Made by a program: the position numbers and the translations under genes
Notes under the pieces: model-generated
What the model was told of the DNA's origin: nothing
What the model saw: only the letters and a program-made list of their open reading frames with translations
Databases searched by the model: none
IMG/VR virus record: IMGVR_UViG_3300046450_001953
Location: 3,414 to 67,413 of that record
Strand: one strand, 5' to 3'
Source of the DNA: a virus
DNA: 64,000 nucleotides
Shown: positions 55,267 to 62,060 of the stretch, in pieces
Numbering within the stretch: the stretch's first letter is position 1
How the letters are laid out: every line of letters begins with the position of its first letter

Positions 55267-55305
55267 TTGCGTTTCTTGCGTTTGTGGCATAACATTAAGT
55301 TATGC
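55267..55305 (+). promoter_or_regulatory. Sigma70-like promoter TTGCGT-N17-TAACAT overlapped by inverted repeat GCATAAC-N5-GTTATGC
   Basis: -35 at 55267 and -10 at 55290, 6 nt before ATG 55302. Confidence 0.5.
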
Positions 55306-55823
55306 AAAAAAAATCATATTCCTTGGGACTTGATATAAGTTCAACGGTTGTTGGGTATTGTGTATCAACATCTAAGAAAAATATAACTGAAGCAGGTTAT
55401 ATCGATATCCACAAAGAACCCACTATTAGGGACAAAGCACATAAAGTTGCCCAGACTCTGGAGAACTTGGATGGAGTTCCTGATATAATAATCATTGAAG
55501 AAAGTTTAAGTGGTTTTGGTGGAGGACGAACGAGTCAGCAGACTATTGTAAAACTCGCAAAGTGCAACGCAGTAGTAAGTTATGTAGTTGAAGCAATTTA
55601 TGAGTGTGATATTGAACACGTAAATGTATCCACTCTCAGAAAGGCCGTTTTCGGCAAAAGTCGTGAGAAGGATGTTGATAGCAAGCAGTTCGTACGTGAA
55701 CAACTTGAGAATATGCTTGATTTATCTGAGTTTGTTGTCTATAATAGTAGAAAAAATTATGATAAAAAGAACTATGATATGTTGGACGCGACCGTAGCAT
55801 CTCTTTATCACTGGTATAAATAA
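55302..55823 (+). CDS. ruvC: RuvC-like Holliday junction resolvase
   Basis: LGLDISS (D), IIIEE (E) and YDMLDA (DxxD) catalytic motifs. Confidence 0.8.
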   Translation: MQKKSYSLGLDISSTVVGYCVSTSKKNITEAGYIDIHKEPTIRDKAHKVAQTLENLDGVPDIIIIEESLSGFGGGRTSQQTIVKLAKCNAVVSYVVEAIYECDIEHVNVSTLRKAVFGKSREKDVDSKQFVREQLENMLDLSEFVVYNSRKNYDKKNYDMLDATVASLYHWYK

Positions 55824-55827
55824 CACG

Positions 55828-56754
55828 ATGGGGATTTCCGAGCAGAAGTTGCTCACACTATTACAAAAAGTTCTAGGTGAGGGCAAAATGGTTTCAAAAG
55901 ATGAGGCAATGTTTGTGTGTCCGTTTTCCCACCACAGAAAACCCAAGTTGGCAGTAAATCTAACCACACAATATTGGCAAAGTTGGATTGATACGAATGC
56001 CAAGGGAAGAAGCATCTATACGTTGTTTAAGAGGTTACAGGTTCCAAGCAATTATTTTGCGGAACTTTCCAAGATTGTAAAACTTCCCAAGAGCATGAAG
56101 TTGGCAGATACTGAAAAACAATACGTATCATTGCCTTATGAGTTTAAAAGATTAACCGAAACACATAAAGATTTTTCTTACACAAAGGCAATGAACTATT
56201 TGAAAAATCGTGGCATTAAGTCATATGACATTGAACGTTACGACATTGGATATTGTTCGGGTGGAGATTATGGTGGCAGAATTATTGTTCCGTCATTTGA
56301 TGTGGATAACAAATTAAACTATTTTTTAGCAAGAGATTTTACTGGTTCCGCATATCTAAAATACAAAAACCCACCCGTTAGTAAGGATGTTGTTGTATTT
56401 GAGAATCAAGTAGACTTCTCCGAACCACTTATTTTCTGCGAAGGAGTATTTGATGCAATTGCCATTCGCAGAAATGCGATTGCGTTGTTGGGAAAGAACA
56501 TCCCAAGTAAATTAAAAATGCGACTGATAGAACATGGAGTAAAAGAAGTCAGTATTGTATTAGACAACGATGCCTATAAGAATGCATTGGCCATGTCCGA
56601 GTCGTTGATGAACGACAACATCCAAGTTAGATTGATTAAAATGGGAAAAGAAGATGCCGCGGACTTGGGATTTAATAAGATTATTCACAGACTCAAACAT
56701 ACAAATCTACTTGATTTTGGTGAATTAATGAAACAAAAATTATGCATGAACTAA
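55828..56754 (+). CDS. DNA primase (DnaG-like, TOPRIM)
   Basis: YLKNRGI, RIIVPS, KYKNP, CEGVFDA, ALLGK and LDNDA motifs. Confidence 0.9.
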   Translation: MGISEQKLLTLLQKVLGEGKMVSKDEAMFVCPFSHHRKPKLAVNLTTQYWQSWIDTNAKGRSIYTLFKRLQVPSNYFAELSKIVKLPKSMKLADTEKQYVSLPYEFKRLTETHKDFSYTKAMNYLKNRGIKSYDIERYDIGYCSGGDYGGRIIVPSFDVDNKLNYFLARDFTGSAYLKYKNPPVSKDVVVFENQVDFSEPLIFCEGVFDAIAIRRNAIALLGKNIPSKLKMRLIEHGVKEVSIVLDNDAYKNALAMSESLMNDNIQVRLIKMGKEDAADLGFNKIIHRLKHTNLLDFGELMKQKLCMN

Positions 56755-57446
56755 AATCTGATCTGAAGAATGTTGAGAAAGTATATCATTTAGCAGACAT
56801 TCACATAAGAAACGTAAAACGACACACCGAGTATGTAGGTGTATTTGAAAACTTTTACAACCAAGTAAAACAGGACAACTATGACAACGCATTGATTTTC
56901 ATTGGTGGGGATATTGCTCATGCCAAGACGGAAATGAGTCCTGAGTTAATTAAGCAAATTTCTTCATTTTTACGGGAGTGCTCCAAATTACATCCAACAA
57001 TCGTCATTGCGGGAAATCACGATTGTAATCTAAATAACCCAGACCGATTGGATGTTATATCTCCAATTATGGATATGATGGATGACGATGATTTGTTCTA
57101 TCTGAAGGATAGTGGGGTGTATAAAATCGGAGATGTTGCGTTTGGGGTATTTGGTATATTTGATGATCCGGCAGAATATGTCAACGGTCAAGATATTGAC
57201 GATCCTGAGATCACAACAAAGATTGCAGTTTATCATGGTGCAGTAAAGAGAAGCATGACGGACATAGGATATGTCGTGATGGGTGGTGACATAGAATTGC
57301 CTATGTTCAGTGGATATGACATTGTTATGCTTGGGGACATCCACAAATATCAAGAATTACAAGAATACCAAACTGAACATAGATTCATTTCAGAGAATGC
57401 GGTAGACGAGTATAAACTTGAAGGGTGGTATGTGGCAGATGAGTAG
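56742..57446 (+). CDS. sbcD: SbcD/Mre11 (gp47-like) nuclease, N-terminal part
   Basis: HLADIH, GGDIAH, IAGNHD, YHG and LGDIHK motifs. Lacks the following YxGS motif. Confidence 0.9.
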   Translation: MHELKSDLKNVEKVYHLADIHIRNVKRHTEYVGVFENFYNQVKQDNYDNALIFIGGDIAHAKTEMSPELIKQISSFLRECSKLHPTIVIAGNHDCNLNNPDRLDVISPIMDMMDDDDLFYLKDSGVYKIGDVAFGVFGIFDDPAEYVNGQDIDDPEITTKIAVYHGAVKRSMTDIGYVVMGGDIELPMFSGYDIVMLGDIHKYQELQEYQTEHRFISENAVDEYKLEGWYVADE

Positions 57447-58368
57447 AGTTTTAATTAGATGTAGGAATATTGAAATAGGAGATATTCTATTTGCAAGTAG
57501 TATTGCCAAAAAACTTAAGGAAGAAAATCCAGAATACTCAGTTGATTTTGATTTGAATTACTTGCAACCGATTGAACTACTTCAGAATAATCCTTATATT
57601 GATAACGTTTATTACAAGGAGAGTGTTGGGCCATATGATGAAACATTTGAACTTACGGATGACCCCCGTACACTAGACCCATACAAATCAGCAGTATCTC
57701 AGTTTCAACAAATGTGTAATATAAAAGATCCCGACGATACATTTGAAATTTTCACAAACACATCAGAAGACTATGCCATCGGCCGAAGCATGGGGGAGTT
57801 GATCAACATAGGTGAATGGCAACCTAACTTTATTAAAGTCTGTTATGTCATGGATTGGGAACGAAAGAGTTATTTGCTTTCTGAGGAAGAAGATGAACTC
57901 GCACCCGGATCTCCAACAGGAACTGGATCCGGAAGAAGTCCCCGGAAGTTAGATGATATATTGAAACCTTTATATAAACCAAATATCATGTTGTTTGCAA
58001 TTGGGATTGAATCCAAACTTTCCAAAGCATTCCCTAGTATAAATTCGTCAAGCAAGTTTTCATTCACCGCAAGTTTGATAAAAAACTCCAACTATGTCAT
58101 AGGTCCTGAGGGATGTTTAACAAATATGTCGTCTGCACTCGGAGTTCCGACAATCATAACCACGGACTACATTCATCAGCTGATCACCTCCAAAGGCTTG
58201 GAGTGGCCACAAGATGAAGCAGCTAATTTAAATAATTTAAAATGCAGGCCTCCGTTTCTGGGGCCCTGTCAATATTTCCCAAAAGCAAATCATGTTCATT
58301 TGAATCCTTTTTTAAGTGATACCAAGGTGGGTGAGAAAATTTTAGAAATTGTAACAGATGGAAGATAA
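57439..58368 (+). CDS. GT-B family 9 (heptosyltransferase-like) glycosyltransferase
   Basis: IGDILFAS, ELLQNNPYIDNV and ASLIKNSNYVIGPEG..TNMSSALGVPTI motifs. Confidence 0.8.
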   Translation: MSRVLIRCRNIEIGDILFASSIAKKLKEENPEYSVDFDLNYLQPIELLQNNPYIDNVYYKESVGPYDETFELTDDPRTLDPYKSAVSQFQQMCNIKDPDDTFEIFTNTSEDYAIGRSMGELINIGEWQPNFIKVCYVMDWERKSYLLSEEEDELAPGSPTGTGSGRSPRKLDDILKPLYKPNIMLFAIGIESKLSKAFPSINSSSKFSFTASLIKNSNYVIGPEGCLTNMSSALGVPTIITTDYIHQLITSKGLEWPQDEAANLNNLKCRPPFLGPCQYFPKANHVHLNPFLSDTKVGEKILEIVTDGR

Positions 58369-60958
58369 AACTACATATATAAAAGTTAAACGGCACAACG
58401 CAAACAAACCGGTTGTGGTCTATTCGGGAAGCATGATTCAACAGAATCATGGAGAAAAACCACATGGTCATGGATATGTGTTGTGGGATTTACCTAAACG
58501 GAAACATACCCATCACGAAGTTCATAATGAATATGGATATTATACAATAGAAGTTAGAGATGGTGAATGTGTAAGTGACTTGACCCAACTACCAAACAAA
58601 GCTAGATTGCGTGTTAAAGTCTATAACACAACGGCCACGGAAACCAAAGAGATTATCGCCGACATCCGCAAGAGAACAAGTATAAGTGACTTGAATGTTA
58701 CACGATGCGATGCAATCTCCGAGGCAAAGAAGTATGATCGTGAGAATAAGTTTGATTTCGGTGATATATCCTTACTGCAGGTTCAAAACGATTTGATAGA
58801 AGATTACCTCCGCAGAAACTTCGTGGTGGATGACGATCAAGTTAAAACTGCACTTGATATAAACAAAGAAGTAAATGGCAAGTTGATTGTAAAGGAAGTC
58901 ATTAGAAATTGTATATGGAAACCAAAGAAATTTGAATTTGGAAATATGTTTAGCTATGGACCTGACAATGTAGTTGATTTTACCAATATGAAAAGTGTCC
59001 TCGGTTTGTTTGCATCAAATGCTAGTGGTAAGAGTAGTGTGATGAGTGCGTTGAGTTTTTGCCTGTTTGACAAATGTGATAGAGCATTCAAGGCCTCTCA
59101 TGTACTCAATACATTAACTGATTCCTTTTATTGTAAACTTAATTTTGAGATTTCTGGGGTAAATTACTTTATAGATAGAACTGCATCCACTAAAAAGAAT
59201 GGTGATGTAACAGTGACCGTTGATTTTTGGAAAATCGATAGTGAAGGAGACCGAGTTTCTTTAAACGGAGAGCAACGTTCGGGCACGAATGCGATGATCC
59301 GTGATCATGTTGGTTCATATGATGACTTTGTGCTTACTACATTAAGTTTACAAAACAACAATGCAATTTTCATAGATAAAAGTCAAAGTGAACGAAAAGA
59401 TCTATTGGCTCAGTTTATGGGGATTGATACATTTGATCAATTACACACTACCGCATCGGAGGACATTAAAGAAATTAACGCACTGTTGAAAAGATTTAAT
59501 CGTGAAGACTTCGATCAGACTCTGGACGCAATTCAGACAAAACTAGAGGAAGTAAACAACAACTACTCCACGCAGGACAATAAGACAAACATAGCACTAT
59601 CTCAACAACAGAAGTTAAATAAACAACTTGCGGATACAAATTCTCAATTTAAGAACTGCACATTTGACGAGTCTTCGGTTGATATAGATAAACTGGAGTT
59701 CAATAAGAAGAATTTGAAAGAACGACACGTGGTAGCAAATAATAACAGGGACGATGAATCTGATAGAAAGAAAAACCTCGCAACCAAACGGAAAAAAAAC
59801 TCAGTTGAACTTGTTGAACTTGCTGGGGTTGAAGAGAAGTATGTTAATGTGCTTAGAATTCGTGAGGATATAACGTTGGTTGAAAAGGATTTGGCAGTTT
59901 TGCGAACCTCTGTTAATGCAAAACTTGATAAACTGAAGCACTACGATAGTCACGAATATGACCCCAACTGTAAATTTTGCGTAAACAACTCAAAGAACCT
60001 TATCGCGAGTGCAGCTCAAACGAAGGAGGAGTTGGACAAGGATAAAGCAGCTGCCGATGAGTTAGTAACTCAGAAAATCGCACTTTCCAAAACACTTGAT
60101 GAATATAAAGATGTCGAATCCGACTATGGAAAGATGGGTGAGTTAAAAACAGAAACAACCCAACTTACTTATGCAGTTAATGAAGCAGATTCAAAAGTTC
60201 TTGCACTATCTTCTATGATAGAATCTCTTGAAAAGGATGTAGTTATCAACGACAAGAGCATCAAAGAATATTACGAATGTAAGGATATTATTCTATTCAA
60301 CAAGGAGTTGCAGATTCAAGTAGACGAACTTGAGGTAAACTTGTTAAAAGTAAACGGAACGGCAAATACAGAAACTGAAAAATTACAAACCTTGTTCGGT
60401 GAAGTTAAAATTATTGAAAAAGAACACGAAGACATCGTCGCATCAATAGAAGAAGCCAAGACATACGAAAGAAAAAAACGTGGTTACGAGTTATATCTTG
60501 ATGCAGTAAAACGAGATGGTATTTCATATGAACTTATATCCAAGACAATTCCAAGCATTGAAAGTGAAGTTAATAATATTCTTTCTCAAATCGTTGATTT
60601 TGGAATGCAACTTGAAATGGACGGAAAGCATATCTATTCAAAGATTACATATGAAGACCGTCATTGGCCACTTGAAATGTGCAGTGGAATGGAACGATTC
60701 ATCAGCAGTATCGCAATGAGAGTCGCACTTATCAACGTAAGTAGTTTACCACGTTCTAATTTCCTTGTTATTGACGAAGGATGGGGTTCGTTGGACGGAG
60801 ACAACATAAGTAGTGTATTTAACCTGTTCACCTATTTAAAGGGGCAGTTTGAGTTCGTAATGGTTATTAGTCATTTGGACGTAATGAGGGATATGGTAGA
60901 CGAAATTATAGAAATTCAAAAAGACGGTTCTTTCAGTAAGATAAAATACGAAGCATAA
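58358..60958 (+). CDS. sbcC: Fusion of the SbcD C-terminal part with SbcC/Rad50 (gp46-like) ATPase
   Basis: N-terminal VYSGSMIQQNHGE...GYVLWD, then Walker A NASGKSS, zinc hook CKFC, signature CSGMERF, Walker B IDEGWGSLD and ISH. Confidence 0.92.
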   Translation: MEDKTTYIKVKRHNANKPVVVYSGSMIQQNHGEKPHGHGYVLWDLPKRKHTHHEVHNEYGYYTIEVRDGECVSDLTQLPNKARLRVKVYNTTATETKEIIADIRKRTSISDLNVTRCDAISEAKKYDRENKFDFGDISLLQVQNDLIEDYLRRNFVVDDDQVKTALDINKEVNGKLIVKEVIRNCIWKPKKFEFGNMFSYGPDNVVDFTNMKSVLGLFASNASGKSSVMSALSFCLFDKCDRAFKASHVLNTLTDSFYCKLNFEISGVNYFIDRTASTKKNGDVTVTVDFWKIDSEGDRVSLNGEQRSGTNAMIRDHVGSYDDFVLTTLSLQNNNAIFIDKSQSERKDLLAQFMGIDTFDQLHTTASEDIKEINALLKRFNREDFDQTLDAIQTKLEEVNNNYSTQDNKTNIALSQQQKLNKQLADTNSQFKNCTFDESSVDIDKLEFNKKNLKERHVVANNNRDDESDRKKNLATKRKKNSVELVELAGVEEKYVNVLRIREDITLVEKDLAVLRTSVNAKLDKLKHYDSHEYDPNCKFCVNNSKNLIASAAQTKEELDKDKAAADELVTQKIALSKTLDEYKDVESDYGKMGELKTETTQLTYAVNEADSKVLALSSMIESLEKDVVINDKSIKEYYECKDIILFNKELQIQVDELEVNLLKVNGTANTETEKLQTLFGEVKIIEKEHEDIVASIEEAKTYERKKRGYELYLDAVKRDGISYELISKTIPSIESEVNNILSQIVDFGMQLEMDGKHIYSKITYEDRHWPLEMCSGMERFISSIAMRVALINVSSLPRSNFLVIDEGWGSLDGDNISSVFNLFTYLKGQFEFVMVISHLDVMRDMVDEIIEIQKDGSFSKIKYEA

Positions 60959-61001: not shown

Positions 61002-62060
61002 ATGATCAATTCCGAAGAAAATCAAGAAGTCCAAGAAGAAAGTCTTATCAAGGCTGGTCTTCGAAAAGGATATTTTACTCTCGTAGAGGGGGTATATGAT
61101 CCTGGTATTTTAAAAGCAGTATTTTTAGCAGGTGGTCCTGGTGCAGGTAAATCGGCGGTAGTAGATACCGTTTTTAATACAACACCCGAAGTAAAGTCAT
61201 TAACTTCAACTGGATTAAAAATTGTAAATAGTGACAGTTCGTTTGAGCATTTGCTAAAAAAAGCAGGACATAGTTTAGACTTGGGTTCACTTGATGATGA
61301 TGTATTTCAAAAAATAACAAGTGATGATCCGAATTCAATTCGTTCACGTGCCAAAAATATTATGCTTAAACAATACGAGCATTATAAAAATGGCAGACTT
61401 GGTGTCATCGTTGATGGAACAGGTGATGATTATGCTAAGATATCAAAACAAAAGAAAGAGTTGGAAAAACTTGGATATGATTGTTATATGGTATTTGTTA
61501 ATACCACACTTGAAGTTGCACAACAAAGAAATGCGTTTCGTGCAAGAAAACTTCCACGTAAAATTGTGGATGCTATATGGAAAGATGTTCAAAAGAATTT
61601 GGGAAAATTCCAAAGTTCATTCAAGCAGAATTTTACGATTATCGATAACTCAGAAGATTTAAGAAGCAAATCGAAATCGGGTAAACTTAATCTTGCTCCC
61701 TTTATATTAAAAGCAACCGCAAAGTTCATCGGAAAACCAATTAAAAATCCGATTGGTAAACAATGGATTACTTTGATGATGAAGCACGATAACATGACCA
61801 AGAGTGGTGACAAGAAAAATAGAATGACCGAAGAACTTGATATGGTTTCAATGGAGGATGTGGTTTTGCCAATGGATTTGGAGAGGCACCTGAGTCGTTC
61901 TATTTTCGTTATCAAGAAGTTTAAGTTAAACGAGAGAAGAAATCTTGCGGTTTTATCTCGTCTGGTGGAGAGTTTGGAGTTAAGCAGAAATCAAATGGTC
62001 AAGTATTTCCACCACATTAGAACTTTAAAATTTAAGGGGGAGAAGAAGTCTGATGTTTGA
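61002..62060 (+). CDS. P-loop kinase (zeta-toxin/AAA_33-like)
   Basis: AVFLAGGPGAGKS, VNSD, IVDGTG and R..R.R lid motifs. Confidence 0.8.
   Translation: MINSEENQEVQEESLIKAGLRKGYFTLVEGVYDPGILKAVFLAGGPGAGKSAVVDTVFNTTPEVKSLTSTGLKIVNSDSSFEHLLKKAGHSLDLGSLDDDVFQKITSDDPNSIRSRAKNIMLKQYEHYKNGRLGVIVDGTGDDYAKISKQKKELEKLGYDCYMVFVNTTLEVAQQRNAFRARKLPRKIVDAIWKDVQKNLGKFQSSFKQNFTIIDNSEDLRSKSKSGKLNLAPFILKATAKFIGKPIKNPIGKQWITLMMKHDNMTKSGDKKNRMTEELDMVSMEDVVLPMDLERHLSRSIFVIKKFKLNERRNLAVLSRLVESLELSRNQMVKYFHHIRTLKFKGEKKSDV

What the first reader, a model, noticed from the sequence alone, without database searches (positions are those of the whole stretch)
56742..60958. SbcD/Mre11 nuclease split inside a small inserted domain, with its C-terminal half fused to SbcC/Rad50
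Seen: the first ORF carries the phosphoesterase motifs up to LGDIHK, then ends with TEHRFISENAVDEYKLEGWYVADE. The normally adjacent YSGS motif appears ~920 bp later, after MEDKTTYIKVKR, at the start of an ORF that continues into a complete SbcC ATPase. The two appended peptides read together like a single beta-alpha-beta-beta mini-domain (xxI-ExxxxxYxxxGW-xV...turn...IxxKR) cut at its hairpin turn. Inference: the halves reassemble non-covalently by beta-strand complementation. This would be an intein-free split-enzyme zipper that makes the break a tolerated landing site for cargo genes.
Basis: partly seen in the sequence, partly recalled or inferred. Interest (0 to 1): 0.8.

Follow-up and report, generated by a model that had tools for sequence, protein, structure and literature searches.

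The report
Phage Mre11-Rad50 gene in pieces
A marine phage's fused Mre11-Rad50 repair-nuclease gene is cut in two inside a small clasp-like loop, with a sugar-transferase gene sitting in the cut; this is a variant of the already described "fractured genes" that homing endonucleases make in phages.

Summary
Three overlapping + strand ORFs in three frames encode the SbcD/Mre11 N-half (56742-57446), a 309-aa insert (57439-58368), and the Mre11 C-half fused to SbcC/Rad50 (58358-60958). The two appended peptides are one small beta-alpha-beta-beta element. It occurs unsplit in rare homologues, and AF2 folds it confidently with the break at its hairpin turn. A complex model pairs the two strands (ipSAE 0.89, best control 0.00).

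The SbcD-SbcC fusion is ancestral: about 1050-aa proteins, mostly with a 19-27-aa linker. In other phages the same loop is split with no insert (ATGA-type stop/start overlaps). Elsewhere it holds TnsA-like, Vsr-like or HNH-like endonuclease genes, or their decayed remnants. It is therefore best read as a homing-endonuclease hot-spot.

In the window's clade the occupant is instead a GT9-like glycosyltransferase. This holds in all 35 IMG/VR contigs and all 17 informative metagenome loci.

Dassa et al. 2009 already reported one SbcD-like gene fractured by a Vsr-like gene, with tails of 25 and 9 residues. Crona et al. 2011 showed that such tails are essential in Aeh1 NrdA. I call it a new variant of a known kind, of moderate interest.

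The parts
56742..57446 (+). ORF1: N-terminal piece of SbcD/Mre11 (234 aa) with all five metal-binding phosphoesterase motifs up to GDIH
   Evidence: PF00149, E 1.1e-7; phrog_100, 1.5e-13; motif positions. The start overlaps the end of the primase ORF (55828-56754).
57345..57443 (+). C-terminal tail of ORF1 (residues 202-234): first strand, helix and GW of the clasp mini-domain
   Evidence: Absent from the short-linker fused homologues (114 of the 120 listed have 19-27-aa linkers). Present unsplit in P0124-type proteins. pN/pS is 0.20 against 0.18 for the core. It lies in the modelled interface.
57439..58368 (+). ORF2: inserted 309-aa GT-B fold, GT9-like glycosyltransferase (cargo)
   Evidence: No Pfam or PHROG hit. 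There are 130 homologues. The AF2 model has pLDDT 86. Foldseek top hits are GT9 heptosyltransferases: 3tov at 2e-9, then 1psw, WaaC and TibC. Distant homologues sit in glycan gene clusters.
58358..60958 (+). ORF3: C-terminal piece of Mre11 fused to SbcC/Rad50 (866 aa)
   Evidence: It aligns from residue 18-20 onward to the unsplit 1066-aa protein of Microcystis phage Mel-JY01.
58358..58411 (+). N-terminal head of ORF3 (residues 1-18): last strand of the clasp (YIKVKR) and the lead-in to YSGS
   Evidence: residues 5-14 in the interface. pN/pS is 0.24. It corresponds to strand 227-234 of unsplit P0124.
58412..58912 (+). Remaining phosphoesterase strands (YSGS, QQNHGE, HGYVLWD) and the capping region of Mre11
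   Evidence: The tightest modelled contacts are ORF3 19-22 and 40-45 with ORF1 195-197 and 13-16.
58913..60955 (+). SbcC/Rad50 ABC ATPase with coiled coil and CKFC zinc hook (59969-59980)
57439..57446 (+). 8-nt overlap of the ORF1 stop with the ORF2 start (ATGAGTAG)
   Evidence: An ATG (GTG in L021) sits 8 nt before the end of the ORF1 stop in the clade's 30 distinct junction sequences, read from the rows printed. The script's own tally picked earlier in-frame ATGs in 17 of the 30.
58358..58368 (+). 11-nt overlap of the ORF3 start with the ORF2 stop (ATGGAAGATAA)
   Evidence: The overlap is 11 nt in 24, 14 nt in 4 and 8 nt in 2 of 30 distinct junctions.

Best explanation
This is a 'fractured' (genes-in-pieces) version of a phage SbcD-SbcC (Mre11-Rad50) fusion protein. 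The gene is broken in the surface loop between the GDIH strand and the YSGS strand of the phosphoesterase fold. The break lies exactly in the hairpin turn of a small beta-alpha-beta-beta clasp that extends this loop.

The two products are translated separately from one operon with coupled, overlapping stop and start codons. They are inferred to reassemble non-covalently. The C-piece supplies the missing strands of the phosphoesterase sheet, and the clasp adds a strand-to-strand latch.

Across phages this loop is a hot-spot for free-standing homing-endonuclease genes. Such a gene is the likely maker of the break, and the tails make the break harmless. In the window's marine clade the slot holds a GT9-like glycosyltransferase instead of an endonuclease. 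This is most likely a later capture or replacement that uses the slot as an expression site.

Shown: the anatomy, conservation, unsplit and empty forms, the different occupants, and the predicted folds.
Inferred: reassembly and activity, that an endonuclease made the break, and that the glycosyltransferase came second.
For: (1) The family is ancestrally fused and unsplit. There are 3294 longer hits, and 114 of the best 120 have a 19-27-aa GDIH-to-YSGS linker. Mel-JY01 has one 1066-aa gene.

(2) The clasp exists unsplit. It is seen in P0124, P0162, P0179 and P0195, in further representatives and in L358, which is 1 of 80 loci of that clade. AF2 of P0124 folds it as strand-helix-strand-turn-strand with pLDDT 88-93.

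(3) Complex model of ORF1 with ORF3 residues 1-190:
- ipSAE is 0.89 in all three runs and the best of 3 controls is 0.00.
- That mark was reached by 58 of 80 solved complexes and 2 of 110 mismatched pairs; these counts hold only roughly because my own alignments were used.
- The runs agree in at least 91% of contacts, and the partner's pLDDT is at least 73.
- The interface includes ORF1 189-206 and 210-234 and ORF3 5-14, 17-27 and 39-46.
- Caveat: the halves of a known fold can pass by likeness to solved Mre11 structures.

(4) Purifying selection on the tails. pN/pS is 0.20 for the tail, 0.24 for the head and 0.18 for the core, from 31 distinct sequences.

(5) The same loop is split elsewhere.
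- With no insert and ATGA, GTGA or TTGA overlaps, or short spacers: 12 loci.
- With a TnsA-like gene: L002, 27.2 bits against a cut-off of 26.5; and L239, sub-threshold, with a ROS/MucR finger.
- With a Vsr/DUF559-like gene: L210 and L211, sub-threshold.
- With a NUMOD3/HNH-like gene: L263. NUMOD3 is sub-threshold and the HNH motif was seen by eye only.
- With decaying remnants: L175, L174 and L267.

(6) Split alleles have short-linker relatives with N-halves 80-93% identical, for example L224 and L242 at 92.6% and L210 and L219 at 88.9%. DNA alignments show clean cassette boundaries.

(7) The ORF2 family otherwise lives in glycan clusters, in 39 loci without SbcD or SbcC nearby. In the window it is therefore cargo.

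(8) Print precedent: Dassa 2009 and Crona 2011.
Against: - No endonuclease or remnant is seen anywhere in the window's own clade: 35 IMG/VR contigs and 17 metagenome loci all carry ORF2. An endonuclease origin for this particular break is therefore by analogy only.
- Unsplit clasps and empty splits allow the opposite order: clasp first, then a split by a simple stop and restart, with the inserts arriving later.
- The clasp tail is less conserved between distant lineages (mean identity 0.29) than the core (0.44) in 146 pairs. This gives no support for recent lateral spread of one cassette.
- Most endonuclease domain calls are below Pfam's cut-offs.
- Activity and binding are predictions only.
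- The survey loci were fetched with split queries, so the proportions are not population frequencies.
Confidence: 0.68

Rival explanations
1. Clasp first. The mini-domain arose as a loop decoration of the unsplit enzyme and made the loop splittable. The split arose by a small frameshift or a stop and restart. The intergenic slot so created was colonised only later by endonuclease genes and, here, by a glycosyltransferase.
For: - Unsplit clasps occur in several lineages.
- Twelve loci are split with no insert, and their stop and start overlap by 1-4 nt or are separated by 2-40 nt.
- Different endonuclease families occupy the same slot, as expected for a safe harbour.
Against: - Clasp and split appear together, as a replacement of about 10 nt by about 100-130 nt, in alleles whose flanks are 80-93% identical to short-linker alleles. 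Unsplit clasps are rare (1 of 80; 4 of 120).
- L174 and L175 show endonuclease decay leading towards the empty state. Empty sites can therefore be the end of the cycle rather than its beginning.
Confidence: 0.25
2. The halves are joined after transcription or translation (intron splicing, protein trans-splicing, ribosomal bypass), so that one polypeptide is made.
For: Inteins do occur in this gene family at another site (P0145, P0248 and P0331).
Against: - The three ORFs are in three frames, and the insert is a conserved protein-coding gene with 130 homologues.
- There are no Rfam hits at E up to 1 in 56500-59000.
- ORF1 and ORF3 have no intein domain, and tails of 33 and 18 residues are too short for a split intein.
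- An RNA-library contig is colinear with the genome across the ORF1/ORF2 junction (57210-57477), and no joints were seen in 3 RNA runs. This is weak evidence, because contigs may include DNA carry-over and none crosses 58358.
Confidence: 0.03
3. The split gene is a decaying pseudogene and the phage relies on the host's or another nuclease.
For: None was found beyond the break itself.
Against: - Both pieces keep all motifs.
- pN/pS is 0.18-0.24.
- The same arrangement is conserved over ORF1 identities from 66 to 98% in more than 35 contigs.
Confidence: 0.04

Closest known systems
SbcD-like fractured gene with a Vsr-like endonuclease ORF (Lake Gatun GOS locus; Dassa et al. 2009, NAR, PMC2677866; passages read)
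   Same: It has two ORFs equal to the N and C halves of an SbcD-like nuclease, an ORF between them and no intein. There are extra residues at the break (25 C-terminal and 9 N-terminal) that are absent from other SbcD-like proteins. The 3' end of the insert overlaps the downstream start.
   Different: Here the insert is a GT9-like glycosyltransferase, not an endonuclease, and the downstream piece is fused to SbcC. The paper describes one locus and does not discuss a folded mini-domain, unsplit forms or empty sites. Its Supplementary Figure S2 could not be seen, so whether the tails are the same is unverified.
Aeromonas phage Aeh1 NrdA-a / MobE / NrdA-b (Crona et al. 2011, NAR, PMC3045599; abstract, introduction and discussion read)
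   Same: An essential enzyme is split between two adjacent beta strands of its catalytic fold by a free-standing endonuclease gene. [quoted passage not shown]
   Different: The enzyme is different. The NrdA tails are oppositely charged peptides needed for dimerisation of heterodimers, not a folded clasp known in unsplit form. It is a single phage, not many lineages.
T4 topoisomerase gp39/gp60 with mobA (as discussed in Crona 2011; the 50-nt bypass cassette is recalled and also appears in the listing)
   Same: An endonuclease-associated split of an essential DNA-metabolism gene, with tail-like extensions.
   Different: T4 adds a ribosomal bypass. No such element is indicated here.
Fractured genes with split inteins (Dassa et al. 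2009)
   Same: The same gene order: N-piece, free-standing endonuclease gene, C-piece.
   Different: No intein parts are present here, so the pieces would stay separate polypeptides.
Unsplit SbcD-SbcC fusion, e.g. Microcystis phage Mel-JY01 WWT39521.1
   Same: It has the same domain order and the same neighbourhood (primase upstream). It is 35.5% identical to ORF3 over residues 20-865.
   Different: It is one 1066-aa protein with a short linker, no clasp and no insert.

Membership tests
Fractured gene / genes in pieces made by a free-standing homing endonuclease | One gene of relatives is two same-strand, same-order ORFs here | tested here: met
Fractured gene / genes in pieces made by a free-standing homing endonuclease | The break lies inside the conserved catalytic domain, between adjacent motifs | tested here: met
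   The break is between GDIH (ORF1 198-201) and YSGS (ORF3 22-25).
Fractured gene / genes in pieces made by a free-standing homing endonuclease | The intervening ORF is a homing endonuclease | tested here: not met
   ORF2 has a GT9-like fold and no nuclease domain. The feature is met only in other lineages: L002 above Pfam's cut-off, and L239, L210 and L263 below it.
Fractured gene / genes in pieces made by a free-standing homing endonuclease | Extra tails at the break that unsplit homologues lack | tested here: met
   114 of the 120 listed unsplit homologues have 19-27-aa linkers. The tails add about 35 residues. Rare unsplit homologues keep them.
Fractured gene / genes in pieces made by a free-standing homing endonuclease | The 3' end of the insert overlaps the start of the downstream piece | tested here: met
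   The overlap is 11 nt in the window and 8-14 nt in all 30 distinct junctions.
Fractured gene / genes in pieces made by a free-standing homing endonuclease | The pieces assemble into an active enzyme, and the tails are needed | not testable with these tools
   Only a model is available: ipSAE 0.89 against a best control of 0.00.
SbcD/Mre11 (calcineurin-like phosphoesterase) | Metal-binding motifs DxH, GD, GNHD/E, H and GxxH, plus a family profile match | tested here: met
   PF00149 at E 1.1e-7 and 33 bits against a cut-off of 21.5. The motifs are located and are invariant in alignment A2.
SbcC/Rad50 ABC ATPase | P-loop N-lobe, long coiled coil with a CxxC hook, signature motif and Walker B C-lobe | tested here: met
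   AAA_23 at 46.7 bits against a cut-off of 27. phrog_77 at 1.1e-41. CKFC, SGME and DEGWG are located.
Intein / split intein | In-frame splicing domain (about 130 aa or more, or N and C parts) with conserved terminal blocks | tested here: not met
   ORF1 and ORF3 have no intein family hit, although the same scan finds inteins in P0145 and P0248. The tails are 33 and 18 residues, and the insert is in another frame.
Group I / II intron | A ribozyme structure flanking the inserted ORF | tested here: not met
   There are 0 Rfam matches at E up to 1 in 56500-59000, and there is no non-coding flank because the ORFs overlap.
GT9 glycosyltransferase (ORF2) | Family profile match (Pfam Glyco_transf_9) | tested here: not met
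   No Pfam family matches at E up to 0.1.
GT9 glycosyltransferase (ORF2) | GT-B two-Rossmann fold closest to heptosyltransferases | tested here: met
   Foldseek against the PDB gives 3tov at E 2e-9, then 1psw, WaaC and TibC, with TM about 0.5. The model has pLDDT 86.

The most novel reading that the evidence does not exclude
The beta-alpha-beta | beta clasp is a portable 'split adapter' that travels with free-standing homing-endonuclease genes. It lets them settle inside an essential catalytic domain without any splicing. It survives as a scar after the endonuclease decays, giving first empty splits and then re-fused unsplit clasps. It also leaves a translationally coupled slot that phages reuse to express unrelated cargo such as the GT9-like glycosyltransferase seen here.
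Probability: 0.3. Interest if true: 0.7.

Novelty: new variant of a known kind. Interest (0 to 1): 0.5.

Why it matters
- It adds a widespread natural series to the two or three known cases of tail-assisted 'genes in pieces'. The series runs through short linker, occupied split, decaying insert, empty split and unsplit clasp.
- The series makes the open question raised by Crona et al. testable by comparison and at the bench: do the assembly tails arrive with the endonuclease gene?
- It shows that such a break can be taken over by a non-selfish cargo gene and kept in an abundant marine phage clade.
- The 35-residue clasp is a candidate natural module for splitting enzymes without inteins.

Tried and rejected
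- blastn of the region against phage records found no match.
- tblastn of ORF2 against phage records found no match.
- Pfam and PHROGs gave nothing for ORF2. Its identity came from the fold only.
- The related-loci scan with P0294 found nothing.

**Tree of the N-half** (FastTree, 146 rows, 202 columns). The clasp and split states need 15 changes, and 5-6 of these are forced by well-supported branches. This is a quick tree of a short domain, it is unrooted, and no AU test was run. P0248 and P0331 were left out because of their intein inserts. It shows patchiness, not direction.

**Lateral spread of the clasp.** The 20 residues ending at GW are on average 29% identical in 146 lineage pairs whose cores are 44% identical. 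This gives no support for lateral spread, and I dropped it as evidence.

**RNA check**. Only Logan contigs of three RNA libraries were available.
- One contig bridges the ORF1/ORF2 junction colinearly, with 31 nt beyond the ORF1 stop.
- None covers the ORF2/ORF3 junction.
- The uncovered parts mean nothing.

**Rejected readings:** intein, intron, pseudogene and assembly artefact (see the rival explanations).

I did not examine promoters or terminators, nor the host of the phage. The supplements of Dassa 2009 are closed, so I could not compare their SbcD-like tails with these.

Full report
**What is there.**

On the + strand, three ORFs in three different frames follow a primase-like ORF (55828-56754), and each overlaps the next.
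- ORF1 is 56742-57446 (234 aa).
- ORF2 is 57439-58368 (309 aa from the ATG).
- ORF3 is 58358-60958 (866 aa).

ORF1 is the N-terminal part of an SbcD/Mre11 phosphoesterase. Pfam PF00149 matches at E 1.1e-7 and the PHROG SbcD-like family at 1.5e-13. It holds the motifs DIHIR, GGD, GNHD, YHG and GDIH, the last at residues 198-201. It then runs on for 33 residues, with GW at 228-229, and stops.

ORF3 begins with 21 residues that include YIKVKR. It then has YSGS (22-25), QQNHGE and the rest of the Mre11 fold. From about residue 186 it is a complete SbcC/Rad50, with AAA_23 at 7.7e-12 and the PHROG SbcC-like family at 1.1e-41, a CKFC hook, SGME and DEGWG.

**The fusion is ancestral and the split is derived.**

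Microcystis phage Mel-JY01 encodes one 1066-aa protein with the same order of domains, a short link between GDIH and YPGS, and a primase upstream.

A search for longer relatives of ORF1 gave 3294 proteins, mostly about 1050 aa. Among the 120 listed:
- 114 have a GDIH-to-YSGS stretch of 19-27 residues;
- 4 have 56-57 residues;
- 2 escaped my pattern and look like the 26-residue type.

**The two peptides are one mini-domain.**

The four long-linker proteins (P0124, P0162, P0179, P0195) carry, unsplit, a segment that matches the window's tail followed by its head. Further unsplit and split versions are among the 50%-identity cluster representatives. One unsplit case is confirmed on DNA: L358, 1 of 80 loci of that clade, while the other 79 have 19-26-residue linkers.

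AF2 of P0124, with a 40-row alignment, predicts the following elements with block pLDDT of 88-93:
- strand 198-205;
- helix 206-214;
- a two-residue strand at 218-219;
- a turn at 220-226;
- strand 227-234.

The window's break maps to that turn.

**Do the halves fit together?**

I ran a complex prediction of ORF1 with ORF3 residues 1-190, each given as a 16-row alignment.
- It scored ipSAE 0.89 in all three runs, against 0.00 for the best of three controls.
- That mark was reached by 58 of 80 solved complexes and 2 of 110 mismatched pairs. These counts hold only roughly, because my own alignments were used.
- The runs agree in at least 91% of contacts, and the partner's pLDDT is at least 73.
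- The interface lists ORF1 210-219 and 227-234 against ORF3 5-14, which is the clasp.
- The most confident contacts are ORF1 13-16 with ORF3 40-45, and ORF1 195-197 with ORF3 19-22. These are the split phosphoesterase sheet itself.

Because these are halves of a fold with solved structures, the pass may partly reflect likeness. It shows plausibility, not binding.

The tails are under purifying selection like the core (31 distinct sequences):

| Segment | Codons | pN/pS |
|---|---|---|
| Tail | 28 | 0.20 |
| Head | 15 | 0.24 |
| Core | 184 | 0.18 |

**How widespread it is in the window's clade.**

All 23 close IMG/VR relatives of ORF1 that span the site (77-87% identity; one further locus is a fragment) have the same three-ORF layout. 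All 35 loci found through ORF2 at 54-68% identity have primase-ORF1-ORF2-ORF3. Together these make 35 distinct contigs. Of 25 metagenome loci, the 17 from this clade that span the site all have a 1013-1076-nt gap. No empty or endonuclease-bearing variant of this clade was found.

The junction overlaps are conserved. The 8-nt ATGAnTAR overlap sits at the first junction. At the second junction the overlap is 11 nt in 24, 14 nt in 4 and 8 nt in 2 of 30 distinct junctions.

**What ORF2 is.**

ORF2 has no Pfam or PHROG match and 130 homologues of 170-330 aa. Its AF2 model has pLDDT 86. The best PDB matches are GT9 heptosyltransferases (3tov at E 2e-9, then 1psw, WaaC and TibC) with TM about 0.5.

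The 39 loci with distant ORF2 relatives (28-38% identity) have no SbcD or SbcC nearby. They sit among these genes instead:
- methyltransferase/GT7-like genes (26 loci);
- NAD-dependent epimerases (13 loci);
- GT2 genes (9 and 7 loci);
- FkbM methyltransferases (11 loci).

ORF2 is therefore a glycan-type glycosyltransferase that is cargo here.

**The same loop in other phages.**

I built profile models of the N and C halves. With them I classified 304 loci, which were fetched mostly with split queries, so the proportions are biased. The classes were 218 unsplit with short linkers, 79 split, 6 partial and 1 with neither half found. Outside the window's clade the split forms fall into four groups.

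- **No insert (12 loci).** Stop and start overlap as ATGA, GTGA or TTGA, or lie 2-40 nt apart.
- **An insert of about 300 aa (5 loci).**
  - L002 has a TnsA-like nuclease domain (27.2 bits, cut-off 26.5).
  - L239 has the same domain below the cut-off, plus a ROS/MucR finger.
  - L210 and L211 have Vsr- and DUF559-like matches below the cut-off.
  - L263 has a weak NUMOD3 match and an HNH-like motif that I saw by eye only.
- **Decaying remnants of a Vsr-like gene (3 loci).** L174 is L175 with an internal deletion.
- **L027 and L028.** These are split right after GDIHKYQEF, without the GW tail, and hold a 102-aa ORF.

Several split alleles have short-linker relatives whose N-halves are 80-93% identical. 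DNA alignments show about 10 nt of the short allele replaced by about 100-130 nt, or more with the insert, between well-aligned flanks. A quick tree of the N-half scatters the clasp states.

Inteins with LAGLIDADG domains interrupt the N-half at another site in P0145, P0248 and P0331. The last two also end in the clasp tail.

**Reading.**

This pattern of several endonuclease families, decay, empty sites and patchy distribution among close relatives is what a homing-endonuclease hot-spot looks like. The tails then play the part that Crona et al. showed experimentally for Aeh1 NrdA.

Dassa et al. 2009 already reported one SbcD-like gene fractured by a Vsr-like ORF, with 25 extra C-terminal and 9 extra N-terminal residues and an overlap of the insert's end with the downstream start.

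The following are new here, as far as my searches show (only the papers named were read):
- the tails form a folded clasp that also occurs unsplit;
- the slot is shared by several endonuclease families and can be empty;
- in an abundant marine clade the slot holds a glycosyltransferase.

Whether the clasp came with an endonuclease or preceded the split is open. The clasp is not more conserved than the core between distant lineages (0.29 against 0.44). I therefore cannot claim lateral spread of one cassette.

**Splicing.**

I found no evidence that the halves are joined by splicing:
- There is no Rfam match in 56500-59000 at E up to 1.
- ORF1 and ORF3 have no intein domain.
- The three ORFs lie in three frames.
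- In contigs of three seawater RNA libraries, one contig runs colinearly over the ORF1/ORF2 junction and several lie inside ORF2, with no joints. This is weak evidence, because contigs can hold DNA carry-over and none crosses the second junction.

**Verdict.**

The structural inference is supported by models. The 'landing site' idea is partly supported, but its likely cause is reversed and it has clear precedent. I rate it a new variant of a known kind, with moderate interest.

Noticed in passing
P0145, P0248, P0331 (database proteins, homologues of ORF1): Inteins with LAGLIDADG-like domains interrupt the N-half near residues 100-400, close to the GNHD region. P0248 and P0331 also end in the clasp tail, so they carry two selfish-element footprints in one gene.
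   Followed up: partly
L061, L065-L102 (IMG/VR loci): Distant ORF2 relatives lie in phage glycan-synthesis clusters. Their neighbours are a methyltransferase fused to a GT7-like domain, NAD-dependent epimerases, GT2 genes, FkbM methyltransferases and DUF6165.
   Followed up: partly
L174/L267 versus L175: The Vsr-like insert is caught in decay. L175 keeps a frameless remnant, and L174 is the same with a further internal deletion that leaves only the last part of the gene.
   Followed up: partly
L027:5221-9764 and L028: In a 265-kb contig the same linker is split directly after GDIHKYQEF, without the GW tail. A 102-aa coiled-coil-like ORF of no known family lies in the gap, and a 254-aa ORF lies between the primase and SbcD. 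L445 is a short-linker relative.
   Followed up: partly
window 61002-62060 (+): The ORF just downstream of ORF3 matches the Zeta_toxin (5.1e-11) and AAA_33 P-loop kinase families. Its function here is unknown.
   Followed up: no
window 55302-56754 (+): A 173-aa ORF has an N-terminus that looks RuvC-like by eye (no significant Pfam hit). It is followed by a primase-like ORF with Toprim and DnaG-core matches below Pfam's cut-offs, whose end overlaps the ORF1 start by 13 nt. Primase, ORF1, ORF2 and ORF3 therefore form one overlapping chain.
   Followed up: no
L001 (Microcystis phage Mel-JY01) 1632-2144: A GIY-YIG superfamily gene is annotated just upstream of the primase and the unsplit SbcD-SbcC gene. 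It may be another free-standing endonuclease near this locus.
   Followed up: no
window 56742-58900 in public runs: The stretch is held at 0.62-1.00 of its sampled words in ten seawater or marine metagenome runs, and partly in seawater metatranscriptome libraries. The phage seems common in seawater. Four of the runs may be the window's own source.
   Followed up: partly
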